Positions 5,343 through 63,288 of a stretch of 64,000 nucleotides of DNA are shown here, in pieces. The position numbers and the translations under genes were made by a program. Source of the DNA: Parcubacteria group bacterium Licking1014_17 (GTDB lineage Bacteria; Patescibacteriota; Minisyncoccia; 2-02-FULL-40-12; IGHO2-01-FULL-4-A); the NCBI GenBank assembly GCA_007376485.1, contig VMGJ01000001.1, positions 41,788 through 105,787 on the forward strand. The letters are read 5' to 3'. Below the pieces are notes generated by a model. It had not been told where the DNA came from. It made no database searches and saw only the letters and a list, made by a program, of their open reading frames with translations. Numbering within the stretch: the stretch's first letter is position 1; the number at the start of each line of letters is the position of its first letter.

Positions 5343-5467
5343 ATGTCTTTTCGCAGATATTCGGGCTTTCCAGCGAAGCCCTCACTTATAGCTCGCCAGT
5401 TTTCCCACACCGGCGCGCCGGTGGGGGACCAAGCAAAACTGGCTCGCTGTACTGCTCAAAGACATAT
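5343..5467 (+). repeat. structured intergenic element family A, copy A1
   Basis: ~125 nt; terminal stem 'ATGTCTTTT'/'AAAGACAT', hairpin 'GGGCTT-TCCAGCG-AAGCCC', stem 'GCCAGTTTT'/'AAAACTGGC', variable apical hairpin 'ACCGGCGCGCCGGT'; 4 further copies in window. Confidence 0.8.
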
Positions 5468-5569
5468 TCCCTGACAATAATTTTAGTGCTCTTGTTTTCC
5501 TTACAGAGTTTAATTGTCCACATATTTCACATAAAAATTTAAATCTGTGGTATAATCCGCATTTAGAAT

Positions 5570-6031
5570 ATGGCTAATCAATATTTTACCCGCGAGGGTC
5601 TGGAGAAGTTGAAAGAGGAATTAAGAGAATGCGTGGAAAAAATACGCCCGGAGATTGCCGCTAAAATTTACGAAAGCAAGGAGCTTGGCGACATTTCGGA
5701 AAATGCCGAATTTGCCGAGGCGAAAAATGCGCAGGCGATGAACGAAGGCAAAATCGAAGAGCTGACGGAAATAATCAAAAATGCGGTAATCATAGAACAT
5801 GAAATCGGGCATCAAGATGTTATTGCCGTCGGCTCAACCGTGAAAGCGAAATCTTCGGAAGGCGTGAAAGTTTTTACGATTGTCGGCATAGCCGAAACCA
5901 ACCCAGCGGCGGGCTTGATTTCCAACCAATCGCCACTCGGCACGGCTTTTTTGGGCCACAAGAAGGGTGATAAAGTTGAAGTCAACACTCCCGGCGGCAA
6001 AACCGAATATAAGATTCTGGAGGTAAGCTAA
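5570..6031 (+). CDS. greA: transcription elongation factor GreA
   Basis: 153 aa, N-terminal coiled-coil 'FTREGLEKLKEELRE..', C-terminal FKBP-like domain; strong similarity pattern to GreA. Confidence 0.9.
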   Translation: MANQYFTREGLEKLKEELRECVEKIRPEIAAKIYESKELGDISENAEFAEAKNAQAMNEGKIEELTEIIKNAVIIEHEIGHQDVIAVGSTVKAKSSEGVKVFTIVGIAETNPAAGLISNQSPLGTAFLGHKKGDKVEVNTPGGKTEYKILEVS

Positions 6032-6095
6032 TTTCTCCGTATAAAATCTATGATCTCATGGTGGGGTTTATTTTTTGCCGATAGCCCATCTGGTA

Positions 6096-6124
6096 TTGAC
6101 AGCCTTGATGTTTTATGCTATCAT
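6096..6124 (+). promoter_or_regulatory. sigma70-like promoter for small ORF
   Basis: -35 'TTGACA' (6096-6101), 17-nt spacer, -10 'TATCAT' (6119-6124); SD 'AGGAGGTG' 5 nt before ATG at 6190. Confidence 0.45.
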
Positions 6125-6189
6125 TATAGCAAGTAATGTTCCTTGTAATTGTGATTCTAACACCAGCGTAGCTGGCAGGAGGTGTCAAA

Positions 6190-6414
6190 ATGGAAGGTCT
6201 TAGGAGATGGGTAAAAAGATGGATACCCAAAGTTGTCGCCGGAGCGGTGGCAATCGTGGGCTTGCCCCTGTGGGTATACTTTCCAATGTGCGAGTCACTG
6301 AGTTACGGTCTGTCGACAGCAGTTGATGCCCCGGTGGTGGCGGAGTACATCGTTTTCATGATGATATTCCCCGCCAGGGGCGTCCGGATCTTCGCAAACG
6401 CGCTTAGCCGTTAA
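6190..6414 (+). CDS. small hypothetical membrane protein (74 aa)
   Basis: Own promoter, strong SD, hydrophobic segment 'VVAGAVAIVGLPLWVYFP', followed by intrinsic terminator at 6443-6483. Confidence 0.45.
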   Translation: MEGLRRWVKRWIPKVVAGAVAIVGLPLWVYFPMCESLSYGLSTAVDAPVVAEYIVFMMIFPARGVRIFANALSR

Positions 6415-6442
6415 AGACGAACTTACCGAGCACAACACCCCA

Positions 6443-6483
6443 AGAGACCGCGGATTCCATATCTGGCGGTCTCTTTTATTTTA
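6443..6483 (+). terminator. intrinsic terminator
   Basis: 'AGAGACCGC'(6443-6451) / 'GCGGTCTCT'(6466-6474) 9-bp GC-rich stem followed by 'TTTATTTTA'. Confidence 0.65.
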
Positions 6484-6522
6484 CCTTGGTTTTTATTCTA
6501 GATTTGTTATTATTTACTTATT

Positions 6523-7992
6523 ATGCCCATTGATGAAATTCGCAGGAATAAGGAGGAAAAAGTCGCAAAATTGAAAAAATTGGGGATTGACCCGTTTCCG
6601 GCGGTTTCGGGCAGGGATACTGAAATTCGCGACGCGCTGGAAAATTTTGACTCGCTGGCGCAGGACAAAAAGGAAATTACCATTGCCGGCAGAATTATGG
6701 CAAAACGCGAGCACGGCGGTTCGCTGTTTGCCGATATTAATGACGGAAGCGGGAAACTGCAGATTTTGCTCAAAGAAGATGTTTTGGGCGCCGAAAAATA
6801 TTCCTTATTTAATGATTATTTTGATATCGGCGATTTCGCCGATTTTACGGGTATTCTTTTTGAGACCAAGCGCGGCGAGAAAACGCTGGAAGCCAAAGAT
6901 TTTAAACTTTTAACTAAAACCCTATTGCCTCTGCCGGAAAAATGGCACGGGCTGAAAGATATTGAGGAGCGGCTAAGAAAAAGATATCTGGATGTTATTT
7001 TTAATCCCGAAGTCAGGGAGATGGTGGAAAAAAGGGCAAAATTCTGGAGCGCGTTCAGAAAATTTATGACGGACAAGGGATTTCTGGAAGTGGAAACGCC
7101 GGTTTTGGAAAATACCGCCGGCGGCGCTGACGCCCGGCCGTTTATAACCCATCACAATGCGTTGGGTATAGATGTTTATCTAAGAATTTCCGGCGGCGAG
7201 CTCTGGCAAAAACGGCTGATGGTCGCCGGTTTTGAAAAAACTTTTGAAATCGGCAGGATTTTCAGAAACGAAGGAATAGACGATGAACATCTACAGGATT
7301 ACACCCAGATGGAGTTTTACTGGGCTTACGCCGACTACAAAAAAGGAATGAAGCTGGTTGAAGAAATGTATAAATACGTGGCGCGGGAAACTTTCGGCAC
7401 ACTGGAATTTGATATCAGGGGACATAAAGTTGATCTTGATAAAAAGTGGGAAATTTATGATTATACAGGAACTATTAAAGAGATGACCGGAGTTAACGTC
7501 TTAAATGTTGATTCAAAACAAGTGGAGGAAAAATTGCGGGAGTTGAAAGTTGAGTATAAAAATGAGGGCTTTAATCTGGAAAGGGCTATCGATTGCTTGT
7601 GGAAATACTGCCGAAAGAATATCGCCGGTCCCGGATTTTTAATAAACGCCCCGGTTGTTATTTCGCCTCTGGCTAAAAGGTTGTCCGATAATCCAAAGCT
7701 GACCCAGAAATTTCAGATAATTATCGCCGGCAGTGAAATGGGCAACGGTTACAGCGAGTTAAACGACCCGCTTGACCAGGCGGAAAGATTCAAAGAACAA
7801 CAGAAACTCCGCGAAGCCGGCGACGAGGAAGCCCAGATGTACGACAAGGAATTCGTGGAGGCGCTTGAATACGGAATGCCGCCCACCTGCGGTTTCGGCG
7901 TCAGCGAAAGATTATTCAGTTTTCTGATGAACAAACCGGCGCGCGAGTGCCAAATTTTTCCGCTGATGAGGCCGCGCGACAAGGAAAAATAA
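6523..7992 (+). CDS. lysS: lysyl-tRNA synthetase, class II
   Basis: N-terminal OB anticodon-binding domain 'GRIMAKREHGGSLFADINDGSGKLQIL', class II motifs ('FRNEGID', 'GNGYSELNDP', 'GMPPTCGFGVSERL'). Confidence 0.92.
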   Translation: MPIDEIRRNKEEKVAKLKKLGIDPFPAVSGRDTEIRDALENFDSLAQDKKEITIAGRIMAKREHGGSLFADINDGSGKLQILLKEDVLGAEKYSLFNDYFDIGDFADFTGILFETKRGEKTLEAKDFKLLTKTLLPLPEKWHGLKDIEERLRKRYLDVIFNPEVREMVEKRAKFWSAFRKFMTDKGFLEVETPVLENTAGGADARPFITHHNALGIDVYLRISGGELWQKRLMVAGFEKTFEIGRIFRNEGIDDEHLQDYTQMEFYWAYADYKKGMKLVEEMYKYVARETFGTLEFDIRGHKVDLDKKWEIYDYTGTIKEMTGVNVLNVDSKQVEEKLRELKVEYKNEGFNLERAIDCLWKYCRKNIAGPGFLINAPVVISPLAKRLSDNPKLTQKFQIIIAGSEMGNGYSELNDPLDQAERFKEQQKLREAGDEEAQMYDKEFVEALEYGMPPTCGFGVSERLFSFLMNKPARECQIFPLMRPRDKEK

Positions 7993-7993
7993 A

Positions 7994-9307
7994 ATGTTGG
8001 ACATTGAATTCATAAAACAAAATAAAGAAAAAGTAGCGGAAGCCATCAAGAATAAAGGGGCTAAGGTTGATTTAGAGGAACTTCTCAAATTTGACGGCGA
8101 GAGGAGAAAATTGGTCGGCCGGATAAATGAATTGCAGAAAAAGAAAAACGAACTGGCCGAAGAAAATAAAAAACAGAAACCGACTCCTGAACTTATAGAC
8201 GAGGGCAGAAAAATCAAAGAGCAGATCGCCGAACTGGAATCGCATTTCACGCCGGTTGAGGAGGCATTCCTGCGACTATTGAGCCGGATGCCTAATATCC
8301 CGACCGACGACACGCCCATTGGCAAAGATGAAAGCGGGAATGTTATTTTGAGGAAAGTTGGCGAATTGCCGGAGTTTGGTTTCAAACCCAAGGAGCATTG
8401 GGAGCTTGGCGTGGAGCTTGATTTAATTGATACCGAAAAAGCGGGCGAGATTTCCGGCTCAAGGTTTGCTTATCTGAAAAGGGAATTAGTGCTCATGGAA
8501 TTCGCGCTAATTCAATATGCCATGCAATCACTGACAGATGAGAAAACAATCAAAAAGATAATTTCAAAATATGATTTGGATGTGCCGGCGACGCCATTCG
8601 TTCCCATAGTTCCGCCGGTGATGATAAAACCAGAAGTGATGCAAAAAATGGCGCGCTTGGAGCCAAGAGAAGAACGCTATCACATTCAAAGTGACGATTT
8701 GTATTTAATCGGCAGTGCCGAGCATACTCTCGGGCCACTGCATATGAATGAAATTTTAGAGGAAAAATTTCTGCCTATCAGATATCTTGGTTTCTCGACC
8801 GCTTTTCGCCGCGAAGCCGGTTCTTATGGAAAAGATGTAAAGGGGATTTTGCGGGTCCACCAATTTGACAAGCTGGAAATGGAATCATTTGCCTTGCCGG
8901 AACAGGGGATTGCCGAGCAGAATTTCTTCGTGGCGGTGCAGGAATATCTGATGAGCTTGTTGGAACTGCCATACCAAGTAGTCGCGATTTGCACCGGCGA
9001 TATGGGCGGTCCGGACGCGCGCCAGATTGACATTGAAACTTGGATGCCCGGACAAAACAAGTATCGGGAAACCCACACGGCAGATTATATGACGGATTAC
9101 CAATCCCGCCGGCTGAACACCAAAGTCAAACGTACCAACGGCAAATCAGAATTTATCCATATGAACGACGCCACCGCCGTCGCCATTGGCAGAACGATTA
9201 TCGCCATAATGGAAAATTATCAGACAAAAGAAGGAACAATAAAAATCCCGAAAGTTTTGCGGCCGTTTATGGGAGGAATTAAGAAAATCGCGAGTCGGCA
9301 TTCATAG
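7994..9307 (+). CDS. serS: seryl-tRNA synthetase
   Basis: N-terminal coiled-coil arm, class II core 'RVHQFDKLEM', 'FRREAGSYGKD', 437 aa; starts 2 nt after lysS stop. Confidence 0.92.
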   Translation: MLDIEFIKQNKEKVAEAIKNKGAKVDLEELLKFDGERRKLVGRINELQKKKNELAEENKKQKPTPELIDEGRKIKEQIAELESHFTPVEEAFLRLLSRMPNIPTDDTPIGKDESGNVILRKVGELPEFGFKPKEHWELGVELDLIDTEKAGEISGSRFAYLKRELVLMEFALIQYAMQSLTDEKTIKKIISKYDLDVPATPFVPIVPPVMIKPEVMQKMARLEPREERYHIQSDDLYLIGSAEHTLGPLHMNEILEEKFLPIRYLGFSTAFRREAGSYGKDVKGILRVHQFDKLEMESFALPEQGIAEQNFFVAVQEYLMSLLELPYQVVAICTGDMGGPDARQIDIETWMPGQNKYRETHTADYMTDYQSRRLNTKVKRTNGKSEFIHMNDATAVAIGRTIIAIMENYQTKEGTIKIPKVLRPFMGGIKKIASRHS

Positions 9308-9330
9308 TTTTTGTTATTGCTCGAGCCAGC

Positions 9331-9462
9331 ATGTTTTTCGGGACTGGATTTTCACCAGCGATGAAAATCCATCTGGTGAAGTCGCTGTCATTTGTCAAGA
9401 TATTCATTTCATTCAATCATTGACAAAACCATGCTGCCAGCGACTTCAACAGCCCTCAAAAC
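9331..9462 (+). repeat. structured intergenic element family B, copy B1
   Basis: Hairpin 'GGATTTTCA-CCAGCGA-TGAAAATCC'; stem 'GAAGTCGCTG'/'CAGCGACTTC'; stem 'TTTGTCAAGA'/'TTGACAAA'; conserved 'AACCATGC'; 5 more copies. Confidence 0.8.
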
Positions 9463-9495
9463 ACGCCGGCTCTCGCTGAATACCGCGAACTACTT

Positions 9496-9632
9496 GCGCC
9501 GCATTATTGCTTTAGGGCACTATTTGAAACGCTGATTGCATGGTCCTGAGCTCGTCGAAGGAATCAGTGGTTCAACAGAATGAGCCCGCTCGCTGGGCGG
9601 GCGAATGGTGACATAAAGCAATAATGCGGCGC
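9496..9632 (+). ncRNA. candidate structured ncRNA (possibly SRP/4.5S-like); identity unconfirmed
   Basis: Perfect 19-bp closing stem 'GCGCCGCATTATTGCTTTA'(9496-9514)/'TAAAGCAATAATGCGGCGC'(9614-9632); internal hairpins 'CTGATT..AATCAG' and 'GCCCGC-TCGCTGG-GCGGGC'; internal 'GGTCC...GAAGGAATCAG' resembles SRP domain IV 'GGUCC..GGAAGGAAGCAG'. Confidence 0.3.
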
Positions 9633-9649
9633 TACAACAGAATTTTGTA

Positions 9650-10456
9650 ATGAGGACCTATACTAAAAAATTTCAGGACAGATTACGCCTTGAGAAGCGG
9701 CGGAGATCCGTTGTTAAGCCGATTATTTATACGCTTGTTGTTTTAGCCGTTCTCGCCGCCGGCATTTTTGTCCTTTTCTTTTCCGATTTATTTTACGTGA
9801 AAGAAATAAATATTTCCGGAGCCGAAAAAATCCAGGGGCTCAATGTCGCCCAGTTCGTCAATAGTTGGCTGGACTCGGGGTTTATCGGGATTAAGCGCCG
9901 GAGCAACTCAATCATTTTCGGGCAGGACATGCTCGCGCGCTCTCTGATGAACCAGTCGGCGAGAATTTCTTCCGTAGTCATAAAAAGAGAGTCGCCGCAC
10001 AAGCTTGACATAACCGTTACCGAGCGTTCGCCGGCGGGCATTTGGTGTTACGAAACGAGCGGCAGCTGCTACTATTTTGACACTAACGGCTACGCTTACA
10101 GCAAAATCGGGGCCACATCAGGACACGTGTTTCTTAAGGTCAACGATGAGGTCAAGCAGGATACTGAAATCGGACGTCCCGTTTCGGACAATTCTTTATT
10201 CCAACTGGTAAAAAAGGTCAGTGATTCTTTAGCGCAGGCGAAATTTGCCATTACGGAGTTTGTTATTCCTAAAGATAATTTAAACGAACTGGATTTCAGA
10301 ACTAATCTTGGTTTTCTGGTGAAAATAGACACGACAGAGGATATAGACAGGCAAATTTCAGCCCTTAATCTTTTATTAAGCGAAAAACCTTATCTTCTCA
10401 AGCATCTTCTTGAATACATAGACCTCCGAATCCCGAGCAGGATTTATTACAAATAA
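9650..10456 (+). CDS. ftsQ: cell division protein FtsQ/DivIB-like
   Basis: Basic cytoplasmic N-term, single TM, POTRA-like 'VKEINISG', beta domain, C-terminal 'YIDLRIPSRIYY' typical of FtsQ. Confidence 0.7.
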   Translation: MRTYTKKFQDRLRLEKRRRSVVKPIIYTLVVLAVLAAGIFVLFFSDLFYVKEINISGAEKIQGLNVAQFVNSWLDSGFIGIKRRSNSIIFGQDMLARSLMNQSARISSVVIKRESPHKLDITVTERSPAGIWCYETSGSCYYFDTNGYAYSKIGATSGHVFLKVNDEVKQDTEIGRPVSDNSLFQLVKKVSDSLAQAKFAITEFVIPKDNLNELDFRTNLGFLVKIDTTEDIDRQISALNLLLSEKPYLLKHLLEYIDLRIPSRIYYK

Positions 10457-10476
10457 TCCCTGGTTTGCCGGAGAAT

Positions 10477-10600
10477 ATGTCTTTTCGCAGATGCTCGGGC
10501 TTTCCAGCGAAGTCCTCGCTTATAGTTCGCCAGTTTTCTCCTGCCGGCACACCGGCGGTAGACCAAGCAAAACTGACTCGCTGTACTGCTCAAAGACATA
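10477..10600 (+). repeat. structured intergenic element family A, copy A2
   Basis: Same architecture as A1; apical hairpin replaced by 'CTGCCGG-CACA-CCGGCGG' (compensatory). Confidence 0.8.
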
Positions 10601-10641
10601 CTCCCTGGCAAAAAATTGTGGTGTTAATTATAAGTTTCCTT

Positions 10642-12447
10642 TTACTTTTCTATCCTGTACACAAAAATTGAGCCGCCGATATTTGCAACGGGTTTGTAGA
10701 TATCAAGCCATCTGTAATTCGGTTTGGAGGGATTTTTGTCGGTGCCGTAAGAACCGCGCAAAGATGTTGCCGAAACCGCCAGCCAGCCGTCCGACTGATT
10801 GTTTTTTATAAAATCGGCGACATCTTTATATTTCTTGGAATAGGTCCAGATATATCTGTCGCCGAGATAATAATGCGGGTCAGCCCAGCCGAAATAATCA
10901 AATTCAATTTTTTTGATATCCTGCCCTTTCACCCAGTCGCTGAATCTTATCAAATCCTGTCCCCAATCCAAGTTTGAATCAACCACATAATTGCTTGCCC
11001 CGTTAGAAACGGAGTTTTTTTCGGGGCTGGCGTTCGCCGTGCCGCTGATGAACTGGTTAAAATAACTTAAATAATTCGGGTAAGCGCGGAAATTTTCCAG
11101 CGCGTAAAAACCGATAATCACAAAAATGGCGGTAACGGTTATTTTACCCAAAGCGGCGCTCCTATTTTTTGCCGCGTTTATTATATTAACCATGGCTCCG
11201 GAAACCAGAATTATCGCCGCGCCGTAAATCGGCAAAAGATGGCGGATGCCGATATTCAGCCCGCCGATTACGCTTATGAAAATATAAACAGCCAGCCATA
11301 AACCGAGAGCCAATTCGTCAAAGTGATTTACGGCCCATGTTTTTTTATCTTTAGCCCAATCGCTTTTTATTGCCCGCGAAATAAACCAGACGATAGCAAC
11401 TACAACCAGAAACAGCCAGGCGATTGGTTCTTTTATCAAATAAACGAACGGGAAATAACCGCGCAGCGCCGTGCTGTAGACTTTGCCCAAGAAAAATATT
11501 GTGCCTCCTCCCCGCGCCGCCCGGTCCTCTGCCATCAAAACTCCGGCGCCATAATAAGCCAGCGCTCTCACGACCGGCACGCCCGAAAGCGTCTCTATTA
11601 TTTTTACAGGGACTTTGTTGGGATAAATCGCCAGAAATGTTTTTGTGTCCTGAATCTGCTTTTGAATAGGATAATTGAAAGTGTTTAAAAAATAAACCGG
11701 GGATACTATCAAAAATATTGCAATCAGAGTGATTTTTATGGTTCCGGAAATCGGGCGGCTTCCAGCGGTTTTTAGAAACACCGCGTAACCAACTATCGCC
11801 AGTATGAAAAAGTAGGGAACGAGAAGCACCGTGGAAAATTTTGTGAGCAGGGCAAAACCCAATCCGATACCTGCCCACCAGAGATTTTTTCCGGTCTGGT
11901 TTTTCAGGTATTTAATAAATAAATAAGAACTAACCAAAACGCCCGTCAACGCCGGCACGTCGGTAGTAACAAAATGGGCGTGCGAGAGAATCGTGGTTGA
12001 AAGGGAATACAAAACAACTGCGATAAACGAACCGAGCCGGCCGTATATTTTTTGAGTCCATACAAAAACAGCCGTGCCGCCAAGAATGAAAAATAACAGC
12101 ATTGGCAAACGGGCGACGAACCGGATTTTGTCGGCGTCATTGCCCGTAGTGTTGAATATGAGACTTCTGCCGAAATTCCACTCCCCATCCACGCCTTTCT
12201 GCCAGTCGGCAGAATCAAACGCGCCCTGCTTCAGCGGCAAAGCCAGCAAGGCGATTCCCGCCAGATCTTTCACCAAAGGCGGGTGTTCAGGATTCATTCT
12301 CATATCGGCTTTTTTGACGTAGGAATAGCCGGCGCCGATATGGGGAACCTCGTCAATAATAAGCGATTCGTGCCACGAGCTTGCATAACTTAAAACAGCG
12401 CCAAGAAGAATAACAGCCGCCGCCAGAAGAATTGCCGAACGTTTCAT
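10642..12447 (-). CDS. GT-C fold glycosyltransferase (ArnT/PMT family 39-like), polytopic membrane
   Basis: 601 aa, >10 TM helices in N-terminal part, first-loop 'IIDEVPH' acidic motif, C-terminal soluble domain; start overlaps stop of upstream paralog (TAATG). Confidence 0.6.
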   Translation of the reverse strand: MKRSAILLAAAVILLGAVLSYASSWHESLIIDEVPHIGAGYSYVKKADMRMNPEHPPLVKDLAGIALLALPLKQGAFDSADWQKGVDGEWNFGRSLIFNTTGNDADKIRFVARLPMLLFFILGGTAVFVWTQKIYGRLGSFIAVVLYSLSTTILSHAHFVTTDVPALTGVLVSSYLFIKYLKNQTGKNLWWAGIGLGFALLTKFSTVLLVPYFFILAIVGYAVFLKTAGSRPISGTIKITLIAIFLIVSPVYFLNTFNYPIQKQIQDTKTFLAIYPNKVPVKIIETLSGVPVVRALAYYGAGVLMAEDRAARGGGTIFFLGKVYSTALRGYFPFVYLIKEPIAWLFLVVVAIVWFISRAIKSDWAKDKKTWAVNHFDELALGLWLAVYIFISVIGGLNIGIRHLLPIYGAAIILVSGAMVNIINAAKNRSAALGKITVTAIFVIIGFYALENFRAYPNYLSYFNQFISGTANASPEKNSVSNGASNYVVDSNLDWGQDLIRFSDWVKGQDIKKIEFDYFGWADPHYYLGDRYIWTYSKKYKDVADFIKNNQSDGWLAVSATSLRGSYGTDKNPSKPNYRWLDIYKPVANIGGSIFVYRIEK

Positions 12448-14217: not shown

Positions 14218-14505
14218 ATGAAAATAAAACCATTATCCGACAGGGTTCTTATTGAACCCATAAAAGAAGAGAAGAAAAAAGGCGGGATAATTCTGCCCGA
14301 AACGGTGGAGAAAGAACGCCCGCAGGAAGGGAAAGTTATTGCCGTCGGACCGGGCAAGAAAGACGATAGCGGCAAACTAATGCCGATGAATGTCAAGAAG
14401 GGCGATAAAGTCCTCTTCACCAAATACGGACCAAATGAAATAAAGGTCGAGGACAAGGAATACTTGATTGCCCGCGAAGAGGATATTTTGGCGATTATTG
14501 AATAA
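14218..14505 (+). CDS. groES: co-chaperonin GroES
   Basis: 95 aa, '[26 protein letters not shown]' canonical Cpn10. Confidence 0.93.
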
Positions 14506-14543
14506 TTTGGTATTAGTTAAAAATTCGTTGCAAAAACCACAGT

Positions 14544-16336
<1,793 letters not shown>

Positions 16337-16344
16337 TTAATTAT

Positions 16345-16495
16345 TATGCCTTTTCGGGACTAAATTTTCGCCAGCGACGAAAATTTATCTGATGAGATTG
16401 CCTCTGTTTGTCAAGATATTTACCCCGACTATAAGTCGGGGCTCAATCATTGACAAAACCGTGCCAGAGGCAATCTCAACAGCCCTCAAAAGCAC
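16345..16495 (+). repeat. structured intergenic element family B, copy B3
   Basis: Hairpin 'TAAATTTTCG-CCAGCGA-CGAAAATTTA'; stem 'GAGATTGCCTCTG'/'CAGAGGCAATCTC' (fully compensatory vs B1). Confidence 0.8.
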
Positions 16496-16600
16496 AATAA
16501 TCTTTTACATTTGACTTTTGGTTGGTTTTGTGATAGCATTATGAAAGCATCTTAAAACCTTTTATTCTTACATTCTTGTCTGACCCGAAAGGAGACGGTC

Positions 16601-22938: not shown

Positions 22939-25900
22939 ATGAAAAGGATTGATTTAAAGAAGATCATCCATACTGGTCAGTTTTTTGCCGTGAAAAAGAT
23001 TTTCGCAACAAAAAGAACTCTCAAGCTGATTTTTGCCGCTGCCATAACAGCTACCGTCATATTTATTGTCATTTTCTCCTTTGTTAATGCCGGTCTTTTC
23101 AACTTCTATCCTCAAACCTGCCTTGGCGACTGGGAATACGCCGAAAACGCTTCCGGCAAACCCGACCTTCCTCCCGACGCCACTACCGAGAAATTTGATA
23201 AGAACAATTCCGCCTTCTTTTCCGGCGGTTACCGCAAGATATTCTGTGGCAACTTCAGAAGCAATGATGAATCCGGAGATAAAATCTTCCAGAAAGCAAA
23301 ATTGAGGTTGTCGTGGACACTCGTGCCGGACATCAACTCTGCGGTGCCTGTCATCGACCAATCCGAGTTTCAAAAAAATATACTGGATTATAGCGGGGAC
23401 GAAAAGATTATCGTGGTTCCCGATGAAGAAAAATCCGCTCCCGAAAAACAAGAGAATACGGTTTTACCTTCACCCGATGTAAGTTCATCAGCCGAAGAAA
23501 AAACACTGGAGCCGGTTCCGTCAGAATCACCCAGCCCTCAATCCGAATCGATTCCACCGACCGAGTCACCGCAATCTCCGGCGGAAGAGAATACCGCCCA
23601 AGAAAACGCTGATGTCGGCGAGCCGAGCAGTTTTAATGGAACATCTTTATTTAAAATGGGGCTTCTTGGCGTTTTCAGGACAGCGCTTACAGAGAATATC
23701 GGATCACTTCTGGGGTTAATAATGGAAATTAACAACAACAGCAGTTCCAGCTTGGAGGAAACGCTAACTCCTACAGAGCCCTCGGTTTTCATGCCCGAAA
23801 TAAGTATGGAGACGACTTCTGAAAAAGTTGAAACAAGTTCTACGCCCGCGAGCATTGCCGCCGGCGACGGCACGGCCTCAAAATCGGAATCCCCTCTGGA
23901 AAAAGAAATAATACCGCCAAAATCTTTGGATGATTTTCTTGAAATACTTTACAGCGTTGACGGCAAAAACTGGGAATCCATCGGCAATGTAAATCTTGAC
24001 AGTTTCAATAACGCCGAATTTGAGGTGCCTATTATTTCATGGAACGAACTGGCGAATCTCCAAATCAGAATCGGCGGGACGGGGCTGACGGACAGCGTGA
24101 GCGGAGTGTATTTGGACGGGATGTGGCTGGAAGTCAGTTATAGCGACAGTCAAGACGAGGTTGTTAGCGAGGATATAATGAGGGGATTGCCGAAAGTTCA
24201 GGTCAAAGACTCGGACGTTTTCAAATCAAAGAAAAAAGATTTTCGCTTTAACGAAGACGTGAAGTTTGAAATTAATCTTGGAAAAACGGCTTCCGGGAGC
24301 GTTGATGAAAACACGAAACCGCCAGCAACGCCTGAACCGTCGTCGCTTCTCAAAAATTCTTATAAAAATATTTTGGGCGCCGAGAGCGCCTTAGCCGCCG
24401 GCAGGATTGTTGAAGCCAGAGTATACAGCCCGACCGGCAAGCTGACAAATATAAAACCGTATATCAAGCAAGATACGGGGACTGAAACCGCGCAAATCTT
24501 TTTTTCGCCGCCCGGGCGAGCATACAAATCGGGCAAATACAAACTGGTCGTTGAGATTCTTCAGGATGACCGGGTAGTTGTGGCGGAACACGATTTTACC
24601 TGGGGTGTCCTTGCTTTGAACGCCAATAAGTCCATCTATATACCGGGCGAGTCGGCTTATCTTCAGTTCGCTTCGTTGAGCAATATAGGGCACACTTTGT
24701 GCGACAGCAATCTTGAGCTCATTATCACTCCGCCAAAAGGGCCAGAGTGGGTATTAAGCGTAGAGGACGGCGATATAAAAAGGAGCGACACCTGCGGACC
24801 CAATAATTATACCGACAAACCGGATTACTACGCGTATTACACGCCCGAATACACGGGCGCTTACGGACTCACACTGAAAAATTTGGATAACGGGAATGAA
24901 ATAACCGACTCCATTCAAGCCGACGGTTTGGTTGATATGGATGTGGAACGCGTCGGTGCGACGCGCATTAATCCGTTTTTGGGACAGAACTATTTTACGA
25001 CCATTAATATCAAAGCAGGTCAGCCTTTTGAGGGAGAAATTGTGGATACGCTCCCAAAGGGATTTGTGGTTATGGGCAGTTCCGATTACATTGTCCGCAA
25101 AACACCGACGGGCGACGTAGAAGTAGTATGGAGAAAAATTTTATTGCGTGGGGACACGGCTATCCTGACCTATGAATATGACCCGGCTGATATCTCGCCG
25201 GAGCTGTTTCTTCTGGGTCCGTTAAAATTTATCGCGAAGTCGGATCCGCTATCGTCTTTTTTTCAGGAAGCGCGCCAGTGGCAACTGGCGTCGGATTATT
25301 CCTGCGTCGCAAAAGCGACCGGCGCCTGGAGTGCCAGCGGCACTTGGACAACATGTAATTCAACCACACCCCAACCGACGGATACGGTTACAATCGCCAC
25401 AACATATGTTGTGACATTGGATACTTCGGCTACCATCGCCGGTCTTAGCCTTGCAAACACAGCTCAACTGAATCATCCCGGCACAAATGCCCTAACTGTG
25501 AATGGTTCAGTTGCCCTTACACCGCCGCCGACAGTCAATTTTAATCAATGGAACATTGCGGGAGGTACCGCGACCGTAACCGGCGCGATAACGTGGGGTG
25601 CCGGTGGCAGTTCAAAGGTATCTAAGATTTTAATTACAACCGGAACATTAAATGCCAGTGGCGGATTATCATTCGGCTGCCTTAATTACCCGGCAAGCTG
25701 CCTTATTGATATGTCGGGGGGCGCGGGCACTTTAAATTTAAGCGGCGCCATAACAAGCGTAACCAAAGGGCAACTAACGGCCGGGACCACCAGCACTTTC
25801 GTATACGCTGACCAGAGTGCCGACCAAACAATACAAATGGCTTGGGGCGGCGGCAGTTACAATAATCTTGGAATTAATAACGGCGCTAAGGTGGCAACCG

Positions 25901-43018: not shown

Positions 43019-43071
43019 CTTTTATATTTAGTCGCCCGACTTCCTGTATCCCGGTTCGGGAAAATCTTTTT
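43019..43071 (+). repeat. ~52-nt direct repeat copy 2
   Basis: 'CTTTTATATTTAGTCGCCCGACTTCCTGTATCCCGGTTCGGGAAAATCTTTTT'. Confidence 0.6.
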
Positions 43072-43082
43072 CCTCACACAGC

Positions 43083-43116
43083 GACATTCTCACATTCTTG
43101 AGAATGTGAGAATGAC
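43083..43116. promoter_or_regulatory. 34-bp palindrome (candidate operator) upstream of ArsR-like gene
   Basis: 'GACATTCTCACATTC-TTGA-GAATGTGAGAATGAC' (one mismatch). Confidence 0.55.
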
Positions 43117-43127
43117 ATATTTTATAG

Positions 43128-43469
43128 GTGTGTTATGATGTATTTATGGGTGTGGGACTTTTTCATAAAAGAAATAGAAATAAAAATAAGTCTGCCAAAA
43201 CCGCCAAGCAGATGGAACGACATTTCAAGGGGATAGCCAATCACCGACGAATTGAAGTTCTACTTCTCATTGATAAGCATGGGGGAATAAGCGTGGAAGA
43301 AATAGCGGAAAGCGTTGCCTGCAATTTCAAAACAATTTCTGAACATGTGCGCCGGCTCGCGCAAGCGGGGCTTGTTGAGAAAAAATACAAGGGCCGTTTA
43401 GTCACTCACACCCTGTCTCCCTACGGTAAAATTTTTACTGAATTTATATTGACATTCTCACATTCTTGA
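43128..43469 (+). CDS. ArsR/SmtB-family winged-helix transcriptional regulator
   Basis: 'HFKGIANHRRIEVLLLI..ISVEEIAESVACNFKTISEHVRRLAQAGLVEKKYKGRLVTHTL' ArsR-type HTH; real start may be a downstream Met. Confidence 0.65.
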   Translation: MCYDVFMGVGLFHKRNRNKNKSAKTAKQMERHFKGIANHRRIEVLLLIDKHGGISVEEIAESVACNFKTISEHVRRLAQAGLVEKKYKGRLVTHTLSPYGKIFTEFILTFSHS

Positions 43470-43484
43470 GAATGTGAGAATGTC
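43451..43484. promoter_or_regulatory. 34-bp perfect palindrome overlapping ArsR-like stop codon, upstream of helicase gene
   Basis: 'GACATTCTCACATTC-TTGA-GAATGTGAGAATGTC' perfect 15-bp arms. Confidence 0.55.
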
Positions 43485-43522
43485 ATATTTTTTGGGAAGT
43501 GTGCTAGTGTTATTATGAATAT

Positions 43523-49666: not shown

Positions 49667-49706
49667 TAGGATACGAGTGCTTTTAAGAAAATCATGTTAA
49701 GGGTAC

Positions 49707-49864
49707 GCCGATATGCCTTTTCGGGACTGAATTTCCCCCCGCGAGGAAAATTCATCTGGTGAAGCCACTGTTATTTGTCAAGACACAAACCCCGCCACTG
49801 GTGGGGTTTGATCGTTGACAAAGCCGTGCTAACAGTGGCTTCAACAGCCCGAAAAGGCATATCG
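49707..49864 (+). repeat. structured intergenic element family B, copy B4
   Basis: 18-bp outer stem 'CCGATATGCCTTTTCGGG'/'CCCGAAAAGGCATATCGG'; hairpin 'TGAATTTCCCC-CCGCGA-GGAAAATTCA'; stem 'GAAGCCACTGTTA'/'TAACAGTGGCTTC'. Confidence 0.8.
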
Positions 49865-50010
49865 GCTAATGCAAGCAATACAGATTGACCCATTCGGCAA
49901 GGTTCAGGGTCAATCCTGAGCGAAGCCGAAGGATTGACTTCCGGCGGTTTTTGCTTTAGTATAGACTTTCTACTTTTGAGTAATTTTTTTGTTTTAATAA
50001 CACCATTTAA

Positions 50011-51585: not shown

Positions 51586-51623
51586 ATTGTCTGTTTTTTC
51601 GGGGTTTATAAAAATGCGAATAA

Positions 51624-51766
51624 TTAGCGGTTTTTATCATCATTTACCCTGCCAGCGTCAGGATTCATTCCGTCAGAGCTGTGGATTTGGCTTGAAGTTT
51701 AGGAAGATATTATACTTCAAGCCAACCGTGCAATCCACAGCTCTGAACGGTGCTAAAAACCGCTAG
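51624..51766 (+). repeat. structured intergenic element family B, diverged copy B6
   Basis: Outer stem 'TAGCGGTTTTTA'/'TAAAAACCGCTA'; 'CCAGCG' loop; stem 'CAGAGCTGTGGATT'/'AATCCACAGCTCTG'; inner 'GGCTTGAAGT'/'ACTTCAAGCC'; 'AACCGTGC' conserved. Confidence 0.7.
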
Positions 51767-51781
51767 TTATTTGTTTTTTTT

Positions 51782-53745: not shown

Positions 53746-53750
53746 ACTCT

Positions 53751-53887
53751 CGCTAATCGCTTTGACGGACGTAAATTTTCCCGGCGAGAAAATTTACTCT
53801 CGTGATGTTGCTGTTGTTTGTCAAGACATAAAGCCGTTGACAAAACCATGCCAACAGCAACATCAAGAGCCGACAAAGCGATTAGCT
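53751..53887 (+). repeat. structured intergenic element family B, copy B5
   Basis: Outer stem 'GCTAATCGCTTTGACGG'/'CCGACAAAGCGATTAGC'; hairpin 'GTAAATTTTCCC-GGCGA-GAAAATTTAC'; stem 'GATGTTGCTGTTG'/'CAACAGCAACATC'. Confidence 0.8.
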
Positions 53888-53950
53888 CGTTTCACATCAT
53901 TCACCCATCATTAGCGAATAGATGTATTGTTGATATGTTTTTATTTTTAA

Positions 53951-57470: not shown

Positions 57471-57509
57471 GGCAAATGAAGTTGTGGATAAGTAGTTACT
57501 GGCGGCAAA

Positions 57510-57633
57510 CTGCTTTTTCGCAGATGCTCGGGCTTTCCAGCGAAGCCCTCGCTTATACCTCGCCAGTTTTCCCCCACCAGCACGCTGGTGAGGGACCAAG
57601 CAAAACTGGCTCAGTGTACTGCTCAAAGACATA
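57510..57633 (+). repeat. structured intergenic element family A, copy A3
   Basis: Apical hairpin 'CACCAGC-ACG-CTGGTG'; 5' terminal arm diverged. Confidence 0.75.
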
Positions 57634-57751
57634 TTCCCCAGTCAAAACAGCGGCAATCTCAATAGCCCTCAAAGCATATTGGCTCACTGCACCGCTCAAA
57701 AGCGGTTTGCCGCCAGCTCGGGTTGTAATTTTACCTTTTCCTTTATAAAAT

Positions 57752-59805: not shown

Positions 59806-59892
59806 CAGATATTAGCACGGCTTTTGATTCAAAAAAAGTTGTCCACAATTGAAGCGCACGGAAACGTAAGTTATATTTATTGTTAAAACATT

Positions 59893-60306: not shown

Positions 60307-60340
60307 AAATCTGCGATCAAATACCATAAACTGGTTGGGA

Positions 60341-60465
60341 ATATATCTTTTCGCAGATGCTCGGGCTTTCCAGCGAAGCCCTCGCTTATACCTCGCCAGT
60401 TTTCCCGCACTATATCAGTGCGGGGCCAAGCAAAACTGGCTCGCTGTACTGCTCAGAGATATATT
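60341..60465 (+). repeat. structured intergenic element family A, copy A4
   Basis: Terminal stem 'ATATATCTTTT'/'AGAGATATAT' (G>A and C>T compensatory vs A1); apical hairpin 'CCGCACT-ATAT-CAGTGCGG'. Confidence 0.8.
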
Positions 60466-60545
60466 TCCAGCCAGCCATCATGCATCGACTCATAGTCGGA
60501 TTATTATGTTGGTTTACTATTATTAGCATATGCTATAATAAAAAG

Positions 60546-61847
60546 ATGATGAAAGCCGGCATTATTTGCTTAGTTTTGTTCGTGTTCGCGGTGTTTTGGG
60601 CGCCATCGGCTTTTGGCGTCACCAATGTTCAGCAGGAGATCGACATCAGAAACAAACAAATCGAAGAGATCCAGAAACAAATTGACCAGTATCAAAAAGA
60701 AATTGATGCCAACAGCAGTATGGCGCGCACTCTGTCGAGCGAGATTGGCAAACTAAACGCGCAAATCGGTAAAATTCAGCTTGAAATAAAAAGCCTTGGC
60801 ATTGCCATAGAGCAGACCGGGATGGAAATTCAGAATACATCCGGGCAAATTCAGGAACTGGAATCGCAATTGAATTTGCATAAGGCGGCAATGGGGTGCT
60901 ACCTGGCTTCTTTAAATGAACTGGATAGCCGCAGCCTGACCGAAATTCTGTTCAAACATCAGCGGCTCTCGGAATATTTCAATCAGATAAAAGAGCTGGA
61001 GGACACCCAAAACAATTTACAGTTGGCTATCGTCGAAATAAAAGGGATCAGGAGCGATTTAGAGGATAAAAAGCTGACTTTAGAAAATAAAGAGAACGAA
61101 CTTCAGGATTTAAAACGGTTCCAGGTATCCGCTAAATCCAGTTTGGAACAAAACAAAACAGTTAAAAATAAAATTTTAGTTGACACGAAGGGGAAGGAAG
61201 TGAAATTTCAGGAGCTTGTTACAAAAGCCCAGAAAGATATTGAGGCGATTAAAGGGCAAATCGGGTATTTGCTCCAGCAGGGCATTACCGTTGAGGATGC
61301 CATCAAATACGGGGAACTGGCGGCAATGCGCTTGGGAATCAGACCGGCGTTCTTAATTGCCTTGTTGGATGTAGAATCGGGCTTGGGTAAAAATGTCGGC
61401 ACGGGTAACTGGATGGACGATATGTATAATTGCTATTTGAAATTAGGAAAAGAATCCAGAGCTGCCCAGGAAAAGGATGCCTTTTTTGCGATTGTAAACA
61501 AGCTGGGTATCGATCCGAATAGCGTAAAAGTTTCCCGGGAACCGAATTACGGTTGCGGCGGCGCTATGGGACCGGCGCAGTTTATTCCGACGACATGGCT
61601 GGCGTATGAAGCTCAAGTTGCCAATCTTACCGGGCATACTTTGCCGAACCCATGGAATATAGAAGACGCATTTACAGCGGCGGCGATAAAACTGGCTAAA
61701 GGTGGCGCCGCCGACAAAACCAGAACGGGCGAGATAAGAGCCGCGAAAGCGTACATAAGCGGCAGTTCGACATGCAGTTCGAAAATCTGCAATTATTATT
61801 CGAATATAATTTTGAATAAGGCGGCCATCATCGAGAGCAATCTCTAA
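60546..61847 (+). CDS. coiled-coil + SLT-like lytic transglycosylase domain protein (PcsB/CwlO-like architecture)
   Basis: ORF open from 60357 (inside repeat A4); ATG 60546 'MMKAGIICLVLFVF' signal; long Q/E/I-rich coiled coil; C-terminal 'LLDVESGLG..CGGAMGPAQFIPTTW'. Confidence 0.65.
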   Translation: MMKAGIICLVLFVFAVFWAPSAFGVTNVQQEIDIRNKQIEEIQKQIDQYQKEIDANSSMARTLSSEIGKLNAQIGKIQLEIKSLGIAIEQTGMEIQNTSGQIQELESQLNLHKAAMGCYLASLNELDSRSLTEILFKHQRLSEYFNQIKELEDTQNNLQLAIVEIKGIRSDLEDKKLTLENKENELQDLKRFQVSAKSSLEQNKTVKNKILVDTKGKEVKFQELVTKAQKDIEAIKGQIGYLLQQGITVEDAIKYGELAAMRLGIRPAFLIALLDVESGLGKNVGTGNWMDDMYNCYLKLGKESRAAQEKDAFFAIVNKLGIDPNSVKVSREPNYGCGGAMGPAQFIPTTWLAYEAQVANLTGHTLPNPWNIEDAFTAAAIKLAKGGAADKTRTGEIRAAKAYISGSSTCSSKICNYYSNIILNKAAIIESNL

Positions 61848-63109
61848 TGTTTACCAGAAAAAACATAATAATAGCGGTTGTCGTTATTTCAATTGCGTTG
61901 GGAGTTCTGATCAGAAACGCGGCAAAAAGCAGATCGTGGGCGATTAACGAAATAAATGTCAAAAACAGCAACGCCTCCGCGCAAAATACGAGTGTTTTCG
62001 GAAAACCGAAAATAAATCTTCCCGCGAAAATCGCGGAGGGCGTTGAACTGTTGAAAAAATCGGCGCCGATTGAAGTCGAGAAGGGTTTAAAAAAGGGCAA
62101 GTCCGTTGACAGGCGGCAGATTGCGCTGGCGATTCTCGATACGAACACGGGAGCGGTGTTTGAAAAGCGCTATTGGCTCAACAAGAACGAGCTTGAAATG
62201 TACGGCGACTCGGGGATGGTAAAACTGGAGCCGATTGACCCGAAAAATGATTTAATTATCGAGGTCAAATACTGGAACGGCTATAACTCTTTTCTGGATG
62301 TGTCTAATAAAGACGGCATGATTGTCGTCGCCAATAAATACACGCTTTCCAAAACCAGCCTCGGTTCGTTGATAGACGATAAAACTAATGACCGGCAGGA
62401 TATTGTTTACGTGCCTTATTCGGAATCTTTGCAAACCAAAGAAATGATTAAGGCCGGTAAAAGATACCTGACAAACACGGTTGAGCGGGCAATGGACGAT
62501 TTGGAGCAAAGAAAGGTGGTTTCAAAAGCTGAACCGGATAAATTAGTGACGAAGGTGTTTGACAAGAATTTTATAAAAAGCATCGCGCTGGTTGAGCATA
62601 TCGACCCAAGTGAATTTTATCTTGCGGATGACGGCGGCAAGGAGCTTGTTGAGCGCGTTTTGACGATAATCGGCGCCAACAAAAATCTGGCGTATAAATA
62701 CTCCGGTTCGCCGGCTGGGGCTTACGGCATGGCGCAGTTTATTGAACCAACTTATGATGCCATAGCCAACGCTTATCCCGAAGCCGGTTTGATAAAAGAT
62801 TTCAGGCAGGGCATGGCTGACCACGTGAACGCCATTAAAGCGATGTATCTTTATTTTGACATTCATAAAAAAGAAATTGACGTTCAGATAGCCGAGAAAG
62901 GACTTACGGATAAAAAGGGGATTGAAGAAGAAATGCTTGCCGCCACTTACAACGGCGGTCCCGGCAATGTCCTTGAATCGGTCAGGCAATTTGGCTTTTC
63001 GTGGATTTCAAAGCAAAGCGAACTGTCGCCGTCAAAATCCATAATGAAAGACGAAACCCTGACCTACGTCAAAAAATTCCGAGCGGTGAGAAGTTTATCG
63101 GTGTTTTAG
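61847..63109 (+). CDS. SLT-like lytic transglycosylase domain protein
   Basis: N-terminal TM; 'YSGSPAGAYGMAQFIEPTYDAIAN' SLT-like; start overlaps upstream stop. Confidence 0.55.
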   Translation: MFTRKNIIIAVVVISIALGVLIRNAAKSRSWAINEINVKNSNASAQNTSVFGKPKINLPAKIAEGVELLKKSAPIEVEKGLKKGKSVDRRQIALAILDTNTGAVFEKRYWLNKNELEMYGDSGMVKLEPIDPKNDLIIEVKYWNGYNSFLDVSNKDGMIVVANKYTLSKTSLGSLIDDKTNDRQDIVYVPYSESLQTKEMIKAGKRYLTNTVERAMDDLEQRKVVSKAEPDKLVTKVFDKNFIKSIALVEHIDPSEFYLADDGGKELVERVLTIIGANKNLAYKYSGSPAGAYGMAQFIEPTYDAIANAYPEAGLIKDFRQGMADHVNAIKAMYLYFDIHKKEIDVQIAEKGLTDKKGIEEEMLAATYNGGPGNVLESVRQFGFSWISKQSELSPSKSIMKDETLTYVKKFRAVRSLSVF

Positions 63110-63160
63110 CTATATACTAGCTGTTCGCCATTACTTTTTTGCACCACTTGCTTTAACTGA

Positions 63161-63288
63161 AATAAACACAGTTTTTCGCAGATGCTCGGACTTTCCAGCG
63201 AAGTCCTCGCTTATAGCTCACCAGTTTTCCGCTAATGAGCGGACCAAGCAAAACTGGCTCGCTGTACTGCTCAAAACTATGTTTATTT
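63161..63288 (+). repeat. structured intergenic element family A, copy A5
   Basis: Terminal stem replaced by 'AAATAAACACAGTTTT'/'AAAACTATGTTTATTT' (different sequence, same pairing); apical hairpin 'CCGCT-AATG-AGCGG'. Confidence 0.8.

What the first reader, a model, noticed from the sequence alone, without database searches (positions are those of the whole stretch)
5343..63288. Family A: five copies of a ~125-nt structured element, related to family B, with covarying terminal and apical stems
Copies sit at 5343-5467, 10477-10600, 57510-57633, 60341-60465 and 63161-63288. The conserved core is 'TTTTCGCAGATGCTCGGGCTT-TCCAGCG-AAGCCCTCGCTTATA..GCCAGTTTTCC..[apical hairpin]..GACCAAGCAAAACTGGCTCGCTGTACTGCTCAAAGACAT'. 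The apical hairpin is different in every copy but always self-complementary: 'ACCGGCGCGCCGGT', 'CTGCCGG..CCGGCGG', 'CACCAGC..GCTGGTG', 'CCGCACT..AGTGCGG', 'CCGCT..AGCGG'. The terminal stem covaries: 'ATGTCTTT/AAAGACAT' in A1, 'ATATCTTT/AGAGATAT' in A4, and a wholesale replacement 'AAATAAACACAGTTTT/AAAACTATGTTTATTT' in A5. All five are on the + strand and intergenic, four immediately 3' of + genes and one in the lexA/57752 divergent region. The ORF finder translates parts of them ('MLGLSSEALAYTSPVF..'), which I consider spurious.
Basis: seen in the sequence. Interest (0 to 1): 0.8.

Follow-up and report, generated by a model that had tools for sequence, protein, structure and literature searches.

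The report
Y-shaped hairpin repeats in a Parcubacteria genome
The five copies are real members of a previously undescribed superfamily of ~125-150-nt, Y-shaped, non-coding hairpin repeats that fill about 3% of this tiny candidate-phyla-radiation genome and recur in other Parcubacteria, but which strand folds, and whether they act as RNA or as single-stranded DNA, is still open.

Summary
All five copies exist at the stated coordinates. A sixth, diverged copy lies 330 nt left of the window. The source is a 188-kb contig of the MAG 'Parcubacteria group bacterium Licking1014_17'.

The copies fold into a three-way junction:
- P1, a long closing stem with copy-specific outer pairs.
- P2, a 5' side hairpin with loop (U)CCAGCG.
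- A long arm with an ACCAAGC bulge and a variable apex.

In this fold 18 of 50 pairs change on both sides and 94% of cells pair. The open reading frame is spurious.

Family A is one branch of a superfamily. The family-A covariance model also finds six B copies, three copies of a new family C (one on the minus strand), and elements in five other Parcubacteria contigs. All share the CCAGCG loop and an ACCAWGC bulge. No Rfam family matches.

They behave most like REPIN/REP- or ERIC-type interspersed palindromes. There are composite and truncated copies, distribution is patchy, and different elements occupy one orthologous slot. One orthologous copy is about 97% identical between genomes whose proteins are 50-90% identical.

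The assumed plus-strand RNA is not established. The complementary strand folds better in 19 of 20 elements and turns three conserved UC/UC loops into tandem G·A motifs.

The parts
5333..5475 (+). It lies 27 nt after the PBP2 stop codon and upstream of a candidate -10 (TGTGGTATAAT) ahead of greA, read by eye. It is preceded at 5316-5331 by a 16-nt fragment identical to the family B 5' end (TTTTCGGGACTGAAT).
10467..10609 (+). A2, between the ftsQ-like gene (9650-10456, +) and a convergent PMT gene (10642-12447, -). P2 carries one G·U (GGGCTT/AAGTCC).
57498..57716 (+). A3 composite locus. It contains a complete A copy (57498-57643), a family B 3' fragment (57649-57684) and a second A 3'-end fragment (57672-57703). 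The whole is enclosed by a 19-bp outer stem, 57497-57515 with 57698-57716. It lies between the predicted divergent promoters of the LexA-like gene and the gene at 57767.
60331..60474 (+). A4, 25 nt after the stop codon of a cupredoxin-like gene. The P2 hairpin is 60363-60381 with loop CCAGCG at 60370-60375. The bulge CCAAGC is at 60426-60431. The terminal stem shows the G-C to A-T compensation.
63157..63291 (+). A5, with the conserved core but a different 16-bp outer stem (AAATAAACACAGTTTT/AAAACTATGTTTATTT), P2 GGACTT/AAGTCC and a short apex. It is followed by an 11/12 promoter match at 63334-63362.
9324..9472 (+). B1, a family B member of the same superfamily, after serS.
14535..14685 (+). 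B2, between groES and groEL.
16339..16502 (+). B3, starting 3 nt after the groEL stop codon.
49705..49866 (+). B4, with loop variant CCCGCG and a perfect 19-bp terminal stem.
53749..53891 (+). B5, starting about 4 nt after the FtsX stop codon, with loop variant CCGGCG.
9494..9634 (-). C2, a family C member and the only copy on the minus strand, between B1 and the ftsQ-like gene.
51621..51769 (+). C3, a family C member closely resembling the element in contig L098 from another genome. It is followed by a T-run and the next start codon.

Best explanation
Family A is one lineage of a Parcubacteria-wide superfamily of non-coding, non-autonomous interspersed palindromic repeats. In behaviour they resemble REPINs/REPs or ERIC elements.

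Each copy is a Y-shaped fold-back with three parts:
- a closing stem;
- a side hairpin presenting CCAGCG (CGCUGG on the complement);
- a long arm presenting ACCAWGC, with a free-to-vary apex.

Inferred mechanism: a host- or element-encoded protein recognises the folded single strand through these unpaired motifs and the conserved mismatched loops. The element is copied into gene-free slots, mostly just 3' of stop codons. Modules are exchanged between copies by recombination or template switching. Stems stay paired because only the folded form is recognised, and/or because replication template switching re-perfects palindromes.

Shown: repetition, structure, covariation, the superfamily, mosaic copies and patchy distribution.

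Inferred: mobility, the protein partner, and single-stranded DNA rather than RNA as the active form. Once inserted, copies are probably co-transcribed with neighbouring genes. Any effect on transcripts would be secondary.
For: Copy number and placement:
- 15 copies lie in 77.5 kb, roughly 2.8% of the DNA by my own arithmetic from the element coordinates. They occupy most intergenic gaps longer than 150 nt.
- 14 of 15 copies are on one strand.

Structure and conserved motifs:
- Helices covary strongly while unpaired motifs stay fixed: family A 18/50 pairs, family B 30/55, family C plus L098 26/41.
- The family-A model finds B, C and elements in L089, L098, L110, L097 and L091 over its full length at 18-40 bits.
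- A strict descriptor gives 0 hits in reversed-sequence controls.

Signs of copying and exchange:
- The A3 locus is nested, and family B fragments sit beside A0, A1 and A3.
- The whole upper P2 hairpin is swapped in an otherwise near-identical copy.
- Two different repeat types sit in one orthologous slot of syntenic genomes.
- A and B are absent from the closest available relative and from 888 kb of related contigs.
- Outer stems are unique to each copy and their flaws are uncompensated transitions, so they look perfect at birth and decaying since.

Other:
- No Rfam match, and no coding frame.
- REPINs show the same pattern of conserved arms and compensating spacer. REP is recognised as strand-specific folded ssDNA through loops and mismatches (PMC3116915 and PMC8266576).
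Against: - No transposase, RAYT or reverse transcriptase appears among the called genes in the 77.5 kb available.
- There is no consistent target-site duplication and no GTAG.
- No empty-site or filled-site pair was observed for A, B or C.
- Variation within A is concentrated in the apex and outer stem rather than spread evenly, as simple post-insertion decay would predict.
- One orthologous copy is about 97% identical between genomes whose neighbouring proteins are 50-90% identical. That looks like purifying selection on a resident functional element.
- The L110 element sits at the same position as A2, after the ftsQ-like gene.
- The better-folding strand is the leading-strand template here, not the lagging-strand template used by IS608-type single-strand transposition.
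Confidence: 0.5

Rival explanations
1. A cis-acting structured RNA module carried in mRNAs, either in 3' UTRs or between cistrons such as groES-groEL. A Parcubacteria RNA-binding protein or RNase recognises the CCAGCG loop and ACCAWGC bulge to set transcript 3' ends, stability or processing. Each copy is maintained by selection at its own locus.
For: - 14 of 15 copies are co-oriented with the flanking genes and start 3-66 nt after stop codons.
- Candidate promoters lie downstream of A1, A4 and A5. Only the A5 site (63334-63362) was scored by the promoter scan. Those after A1 and A4 were read by eye.
- Canonical terminators are no more frequent than chance in this DNA.
- Unpaired motifs and junction strands are conserved across genomes while helices covary.
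- The orthologous copy in L091/L097 is about 97% identical, and A2 and the L110 element share a position.
- B2 sits inside the groES-groEL pair, so read-through must be tolerated.
Against: - The gene-sense strand is the poorer folder in 19 of 20 elements.
- In B and C its flaws are A·C (30) rather than G·U (6), and its conserved internal loops are pyrimidine-pyrimidine.
- A3 lies between predicted divergent promoters and may not be transcribed.
- C2 is antisense to its neighbours.
- In L091/L097 the element sits downstream of a separate canonical terminator.
- No A copy has a U-tract.
- The element is absent from the closest relative.
Confidence: 0.27
2. An element whose active form is the complementary strand. 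This could be an antisense small RNA, or a single-stranded cDNA/DNA made from read-through transcripts in the manner of a retron or SINE. The complement folds with three tandem G·A motifs.
For: - The complement is more stable in 19 of 20 elements, -1416 against -1273 kcal/mol in total.
- Family B has 14 A·C against 2 G·U on the sense strand.
- Pyrimidine-pyrimidine against purine-purine mismatches on the sense strand number 66 to 11.
- All three UC/UC loops of A read 5'-Py-GA-Pu-3' on the complement.
- Co-orientation with genes is what a transcript-templated cDNA would require.
Against: - Family A alone shows no such wobble bias.
- No conserved promoter or terminator for an antisense transcript was seen.
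- No reverse transcriptase is present in the region available.
- DNA-parameter folds of the two strands are equal.
- Mismatch counts are not independent across copies.
Confidence: 0.1
3. Inert palindromic DNA with no recognised structure. On this view the apparent covariation is produced purely by replication template switching that re-perfects and extends quasi-palindromes.
For: - Outer stems are unique to each copy and look perfect at origin.
- Single wobble events are balanced between strands in A.
- Contiguous hairpin modules are swapped whole.
Against: - This does not explain the asymmetric Y shape.
- It does not explain the invariant unpaired CCAGCG and ACCAWGC motifs shared by unrelated stem sequences in several genomes.
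- It does not explain the conserved symmetric mismatched loops, which template switching should erase.
Confidence: 0.08
4. Integron-type attC recombination sites, intrinsic terminators, or a small protein-coding gene.
For: The variable terminal structure, the single orientation and the position 3' of genes superficially recall attC sites and terminators. A frame stays open through A1-A4.
Against: - There is no GTTRRRY/RYYYAAC core at the ends, no integrase in the region, and spacings of 3-47 kb.
- There is no U-tract after A copies.
- Frame shifts and stops occur in A0 and A5, and A1 has no ATG.
- A six-frame peptide search of 5.8 billion proteins found nothing.
Confidence: 0.02

Closest known systems
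REPINs / REP elements mobilised by RAYT (TnpA-REP) transposases
   Same: - High-copy extragenic palindromes.
- Two conserved inverted arms separated by a less conserved spacer that still forms a hairpin, with frequent compensatory changes (PMC3116915).
- Recognition of the folded single strand depends on loops, bulges and conserved mismatches and is strand-specific (PMC8266576).
   Different: - No GTAG tetranucleotide, and no RAYT seen in the region available.
- The element is a three-way junction of 125-165 nt with a dedicated side hairpin, not a simple doublet of 20-40-nt REPs.
- The conserved motifs (CCAGCG, ACCAWGC) are unrelated to REP sequences.
ERIC / IRU elements of enterobacteria (from my own knowledge, not tested here)
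   Same: - Imperfect palindromes of about 127 bp confined to intergenic DNA.
- Copy number differs greatly between related genomes.
- Copies can be more conserved than their surroundings.
- No known transposase.
   Different: - Different phylum and, as far as I recall, different sequence.
- ERIC is a single long hairpin without the side hairpin and bulge motifs, and occurs in both orientations.
MITEs such as Correia/NEMIS, RUP and BOX
   Same: - Short, non-coding, multi-copy.
- Terminal inverted repeats (ATGTCTTTTCGCAG / CTGCTCAAAGACAT).
- Mosaic and nested copies.
   Different: - No consistent target-site duplication, and no parent insertion sequence seen.
- Internal structure and unpaired motifs are conserved across families whose stems differ completely.
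Integron attC sites
   Same: - Folded single-strand sites with conserved structure and a variable terminal structure.
- One orientation, 3' of genes.
   Different: - No R/L core sequences and no integrase.
- Not arranged as an array of short cassettes.

Membership tests
REP / REPIN (RAYT-associated) | Conserved GTAG tetranucleotide at the 5' foot of the palindrome | tested here: not met
   No GTAG on either strand in five of six A copies. The single hit, in A2, lies inside the variable apex.
REP / REPIN (RAYT-associated) | Two conserved inverted arms with a less conserved, compensating hairpin spacer, in high-copy extragenic positions | tested here: met
   All 15 copies lie between called genes.
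REP / REPIN (RAYT-associated) | A RAYT (Y1 HUH transposase) gene in the same genome, flanked by the repeats | not testable with these tools
   Only 77.5 kb of the 188-kb contig could be fetched. No Y1_Tnp hit appears among the precomputed Pfam annotations there.
MITE (IS-derived) | Terminal inverted repeats | tested here: met
   The inner P1, ATGTCTTTTCGCAG / CTGCTCAAAGACAT, is conserved in A0-A4.
MITE (IS-derived) | Target-site duplication of fixed length | tested here: not met
   No consistent direct repeat at any candidate pair of ends. Instead the flanks are inverted complements of each other.
MITE (IS-derived) | A parent insertion sequence with the same ends | not testable with these tools
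   None in the 77.5 kb held.
Integron attC | R''/R' core sites (RYYYAAC ... GTTRRRY) and a neighbouring intI gene | tested here: not met
   No GTTRRRY on either strand in any A copy. No integrase among the called genes.
Any Rfam 15 RNA family | A covariance-model score at or above the gathering threshold | tested here: not met
   0 hits in the window and in five related loci. The best sub-threshold hits are at most 20 bits and unrelated.
Intrinsic terminator | GC-rich hairpin immediately followed by a U-tract | tested here: not met
   No T-run after the closing stem of A0-A4. No closing stem of an A copy is listed by the terminator scan.
Protein-coding small ORF | A conserved reading frame across copies | tested here: not met
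   The frame offset between the conserved halves is 1 in A0 and 2 in A5. A5 has stops, and A1 lacks the ATG. No protein match was found.

The most novel reading that the evidence does not exclude
The Y-shaped elements may define a new, phylum-level class of protein-recognised folded nucleic acid in Patescibacteria. Two forms of this are open. One is a new kind of single-strand (DNA or cDNA) mobile element whose active strand is the complement of the gene-sense strand, stabilised by tandem G·A motifs. The other is a new non-coding RNA class, conceivably catalytic or a punctuation/processing signal, conserved at orthologous sites across genera.
Probability: 0.25. Interest if true: 0.85.

Novelty: new variant of a known kind. 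Interest (0 to 1): 0.58.

Why it matters
Candidate-phyla-radiation bacteria have genomes of about 1 Mb and are thought to carry little dispensable DNA. I found no described interspersed repeat or structured RNA family of this kind for them in Rfam or in the paper library.

Here about 3% of a 77-kb stretch consists of one superfamily of folded elements. Its unpaired motifs are conserved between genomes whose proteins have diverged to 30-90% identity.

That points to a conserved recognition partner that is still unknown. It gives a concrete handle for finding a CPR-specific transposase, recombinase or RNA-binding protein: the CCAGCG loop plus the ACCAWGC bulge in a three-way junction.

It is also a clean example of how covariation in palindromic repeats can mislead strand and RNA-versus-DNA assignment.

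Tried and rejected
Searches for further copies that found nothing:
- Exact-pattern scans for the A core in GTDB genomes, JGI metagenomes and IMG/VR gave 0 hits. The source MAG is not in those collections.
- A six-frame chimeric peptide of the element against 5.8 billion proteins gave no hit.
- nhmmer with the A and B profiles against 80 GroEL-anchored and 80 SerS-anchored loci gave nothing significant.
- Literature searches for CPR/Patescibacteria repeats, MITEs, REPINs and structured RNA motifs found nothing relevant.

Tests that were uninformative:
- Exact look-ups failed for ORFs whose start codons were mis-set.
- A relaxed structural descriptor was useless. It gave 30 control hits in GC-rich genomes.
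- A simple count of CCAGCG-loop hairpins was not enriched over permuted hexamers.
- Strand assignment from folding energy with DNA parameters gave equal values for both strands.

Readings rejected:
- Coding ORF.
- Terminator, attC site and tRNA-like gene.
- A pseudoknot between the CCAGCG loop and CGCTG in P3. B3 lacks that partner.

Full report
**Observation**

The 43-nt 5' core and the 30-nt 3' core each occur exactly five times with at most 3 mismatches, against none in shuffled sequence. A profile search of the window plus fetched flanks found a sixth, more diverged copy. This is A0, at L001:3975-4104, 330 nt left of the window.

The quoted apical hairpins and terminal-stem changes are all present. 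Examples are GTCAGG/CCTGAC in A1 and CTGGTTGG/CCAGCCAG in A4.

**Source**

GreA of the window is identical to a protein of 'Parcubacteria group bacterium Licking1014_17'. The window is bases 41828-105827 of a 188-kb contig, and I could read 77.5 kb of it. The next-best GreA matches are at most 66% identical, so no close relative is available.

**Structure**

Every copy folds into the same three-way junction:
- P1 is a long closing stem.
- P2 is a side hairpin on the 5' arm, GGGCUU-UCCAGCG-AAGCCC.
- The long arm runs UAUAGC / GCCAGUUUU / variable apex. A 7-nt bulge, ACCAAGC, sits on its 3' side.

Three symmetric 2x2 internal loops, each UC opposite UC, are conserved.

On six distinct copies aligned to a covariance model, 93.9% of cells pair and 18 of 50 pairs show changes on both sides. 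No shuffle out of 500 reaches this, and slid controls pair only 36-49%. P2 alone shows four states: GGGCUU/AAGCCC, GGACUU/AAGUCC, GGGCUU/AAGUCC and GGUUUU/AAAACC.

**Not coding**

However, the two conserved halves are out of frame in A0 and A5, A5 has stops, and A1 has no ATG. A six-frame peptide query found no protein among 5.8 billion.

**Not a known RNA**

Rfam gives no hit at gathering thresholds in the window or in five related loci. It gives nothing meaningful at relaxed thresholds. ARAGORN finds no tRNA-like gene.

**A superfamily, not one family**

Family B has six copies in the region held. It shares the 5' TTTTCG, the CCAGCG loop, a 3' CTCAAA, the UC/UC loop in P1 and the overall architecture. 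Its bulge is ACCAUGC. Thirty of its 55 pairs change on both sides.

A strict structural descriptor recovered all A and B copies. It requires a hairpin with loop CC[AC]GCG, a downstream ACC[AG][AT]GC, and an adjacent helix. It also found two copies of a third family, C, and elements in contigs L089, L091, L097 and L110. Reversed-sequence controls gave none.

With its speed filters off, the family-A model finds the following over its full length:
- all B copies, at 24-35 bits;
- three C copies, at 32-38 bits, one of them on the minus strand at 9494-9634 and a new one at 51621-51769;
- elements in L089, L098, L110, L097 and L091, at 18-40 bits.

Family C and the L098 element share the junction strands AUCAYCAYU, CAUUC, ACCRUGCAAUC and GGUGCU, while 26 of 41 pairs covary.

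In total, 15 elements occupy roughly 2.8% of the 77.5 kb (my own arithmetic from the element coordinates) and most of its longer intergenic gaps. Fourteen of the 15 are on the + strand. That is the strand of most genes and, by GC skew, the leading strand.

**Evidence for a proliferating, mosaic DNA element**

- The A3 locus is a composite. It holds a full A copy, a family B 3' fragment and a second A 3' end, all enclosed by a 19-bp outer stem.
- A0 and A1 are each preceded by the first 16 nt of family B.
- Outer stems are unique to each copy. Their flaws are mostly single uncompensated transitions. They therefore look perfect at origin rather than maintained.
- A and B are absent from the closest relative available (GroEL 74% identical, 20 kb read) and from 888 kb of SerS-anchored Parcubacteria contigs.
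- Only five of those 80 contigs carry a superfamily member.
- L091 and L097 are syntenic genomes. One intergenic slot holds a Y-element in L097 but a different hairpin repeat in L091.
- A second L097 copy matches the first almost base for base. The exception is the upper P2 hairpin, which is replaced as one contiguous module.

**Evidence for constraint at resident loci**

- The orthologous L091/L097 copy is about 97% identical. The adjacent terminator hairpin has diverged, and neighbouring proteins are 50-90% identical.
- The L110 element follows the ortholog of the ftsQ-like gene, which is 30% identical, exactly as A2 does.
- Within A, differences concentrate in the apex and the outer stem, and apex variants are connected by stepwise compensated substitutions.

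**Which strand folds?**

- RNA folds of both strands are strong.
- In A, single wobble events are balanced, about 9 G·U against 10 A·C.
- In B, the sense strand has 14 A·C and 2 G·U.
- Across 20 elements the complement is more stable in 19, at -1416 against -1273 kcal/mol in total.
- Across 21 elements, sense-strand symmetric mismatches are pyrimidine-pyrimidine 66 times and purine-purine 11 times. These counts are not independent across copies.
- The three UC/UC loops of A therefore read as tandem G·A in the 5'-Py-GA-Pu-3' context on the complement.
- DNA-parameter folds do not separate the strands.

The strand and the chemistry (RNA or DNA) stay open, with a lean towards the complement.

**Relation to transcription signals**

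- Candidate promoters lie downstream of A1, A4 and A5. The A5 site was scored by the promoter scan, and the other two were read by eye.
- A3 sits between predicted divergent promoters.
- B2 sits between groES and groEL.
- No A copy has a U-tract.
- Terminator-like sites in this DNA are no more frequent than chance.
- In L091/L097 the element follows a separate canonical terminator.

**Interpretation**

The best fit, at about 0.5, is a REPIN/ERIC-like non-autonomous repeat. On this reading it is recognised as a folded single strand through its unpaired motifs and mismatched loops. REPINs show the same conserved arms and compensating spacer. REP recognition by its transposase depends on loops and mismatches (PMC3116915 and PMC8266576).

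It is not a REP by definition, because it has no GTAG. It is not a classical MITE, because it has no target-site duplication. It is not an attC site, because it has no core sites and no integrase.

The main rival, at about 0.27, is a cis-acting mRNA module bound by a lineage-specific protein. A complement-strand RNA or cDNA element (about 0.1) and inert palindromes kept paired by template switching (about 0.08) remain possible.

**Novelty**

I rate this a new variant of a known kind. The architecture and motifs are new. So is the host phylum for interspersed repeats of this sort, as far as Rfam and the paper library show.

Noticed in passing
One copy is on the minus strand. It is homologous to an element in another genome's contig (L098:68-228).
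   Followed up: yes
window 5316-5331; L001:3953-3968; window 57649-57703: Short fragments of family B ends sit directly beside A copies. The B 5' end lies upstream of A0 and A1. A B 3' end plus a second A 3' end follow A3.
   Followed up: partly
window 960-1030: A perfect 22-bp hairpin followed by a T-run, just after the aminoacyl-tRNA synthetase gene. It looks like a canonical terminator and scores weakly with the A model (18 bits).
   Followed up: partly
window 43083-43128 and 43451-43496; 42174-42226 and 43018-43070: Two 46-nt palindrome-containing repeats flank a MarR-family gene and are candidate operators. Two 53-nt direct repeats flank an RRM-domain RNA-binding protein gene (42496-42858, -).
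   Followed up: no
window 22939-31227: A 2762-aa ORF with internal tandem repeats of about 855 nt, probably a surface protein. The element-free stretch from 17 to 49 kb coincides with this block of large and hypothetical genes.
   Followed up: no
L091:60-330 and L097:13035-13315: A long-hairpin non-coding element of about 250 nt, 89% identical between two syntenic genomes but at non-syntenic positions. L097 has an extra insert of about 1.2 kb containing it. There is no Rfam hit.
   Followed up: partly
L091:8355-8475 and 14290-14410; L157:8587-8701, 11323-11438, 902-970; L006 around 4922-8317: Other, unrelated hairpin or AT-rich repeat families in Parcubacteria/Patescibacteria contigs. Interspersed folded repeats may be common in this group.
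   Followed up: partly
window 10457-10463 and 10602-10608: A 7-nt direct repeat, TCCCTGG, brackets A2. It is the only candidate target duplication seen and is not matched in other copies.
   Followed up: partly
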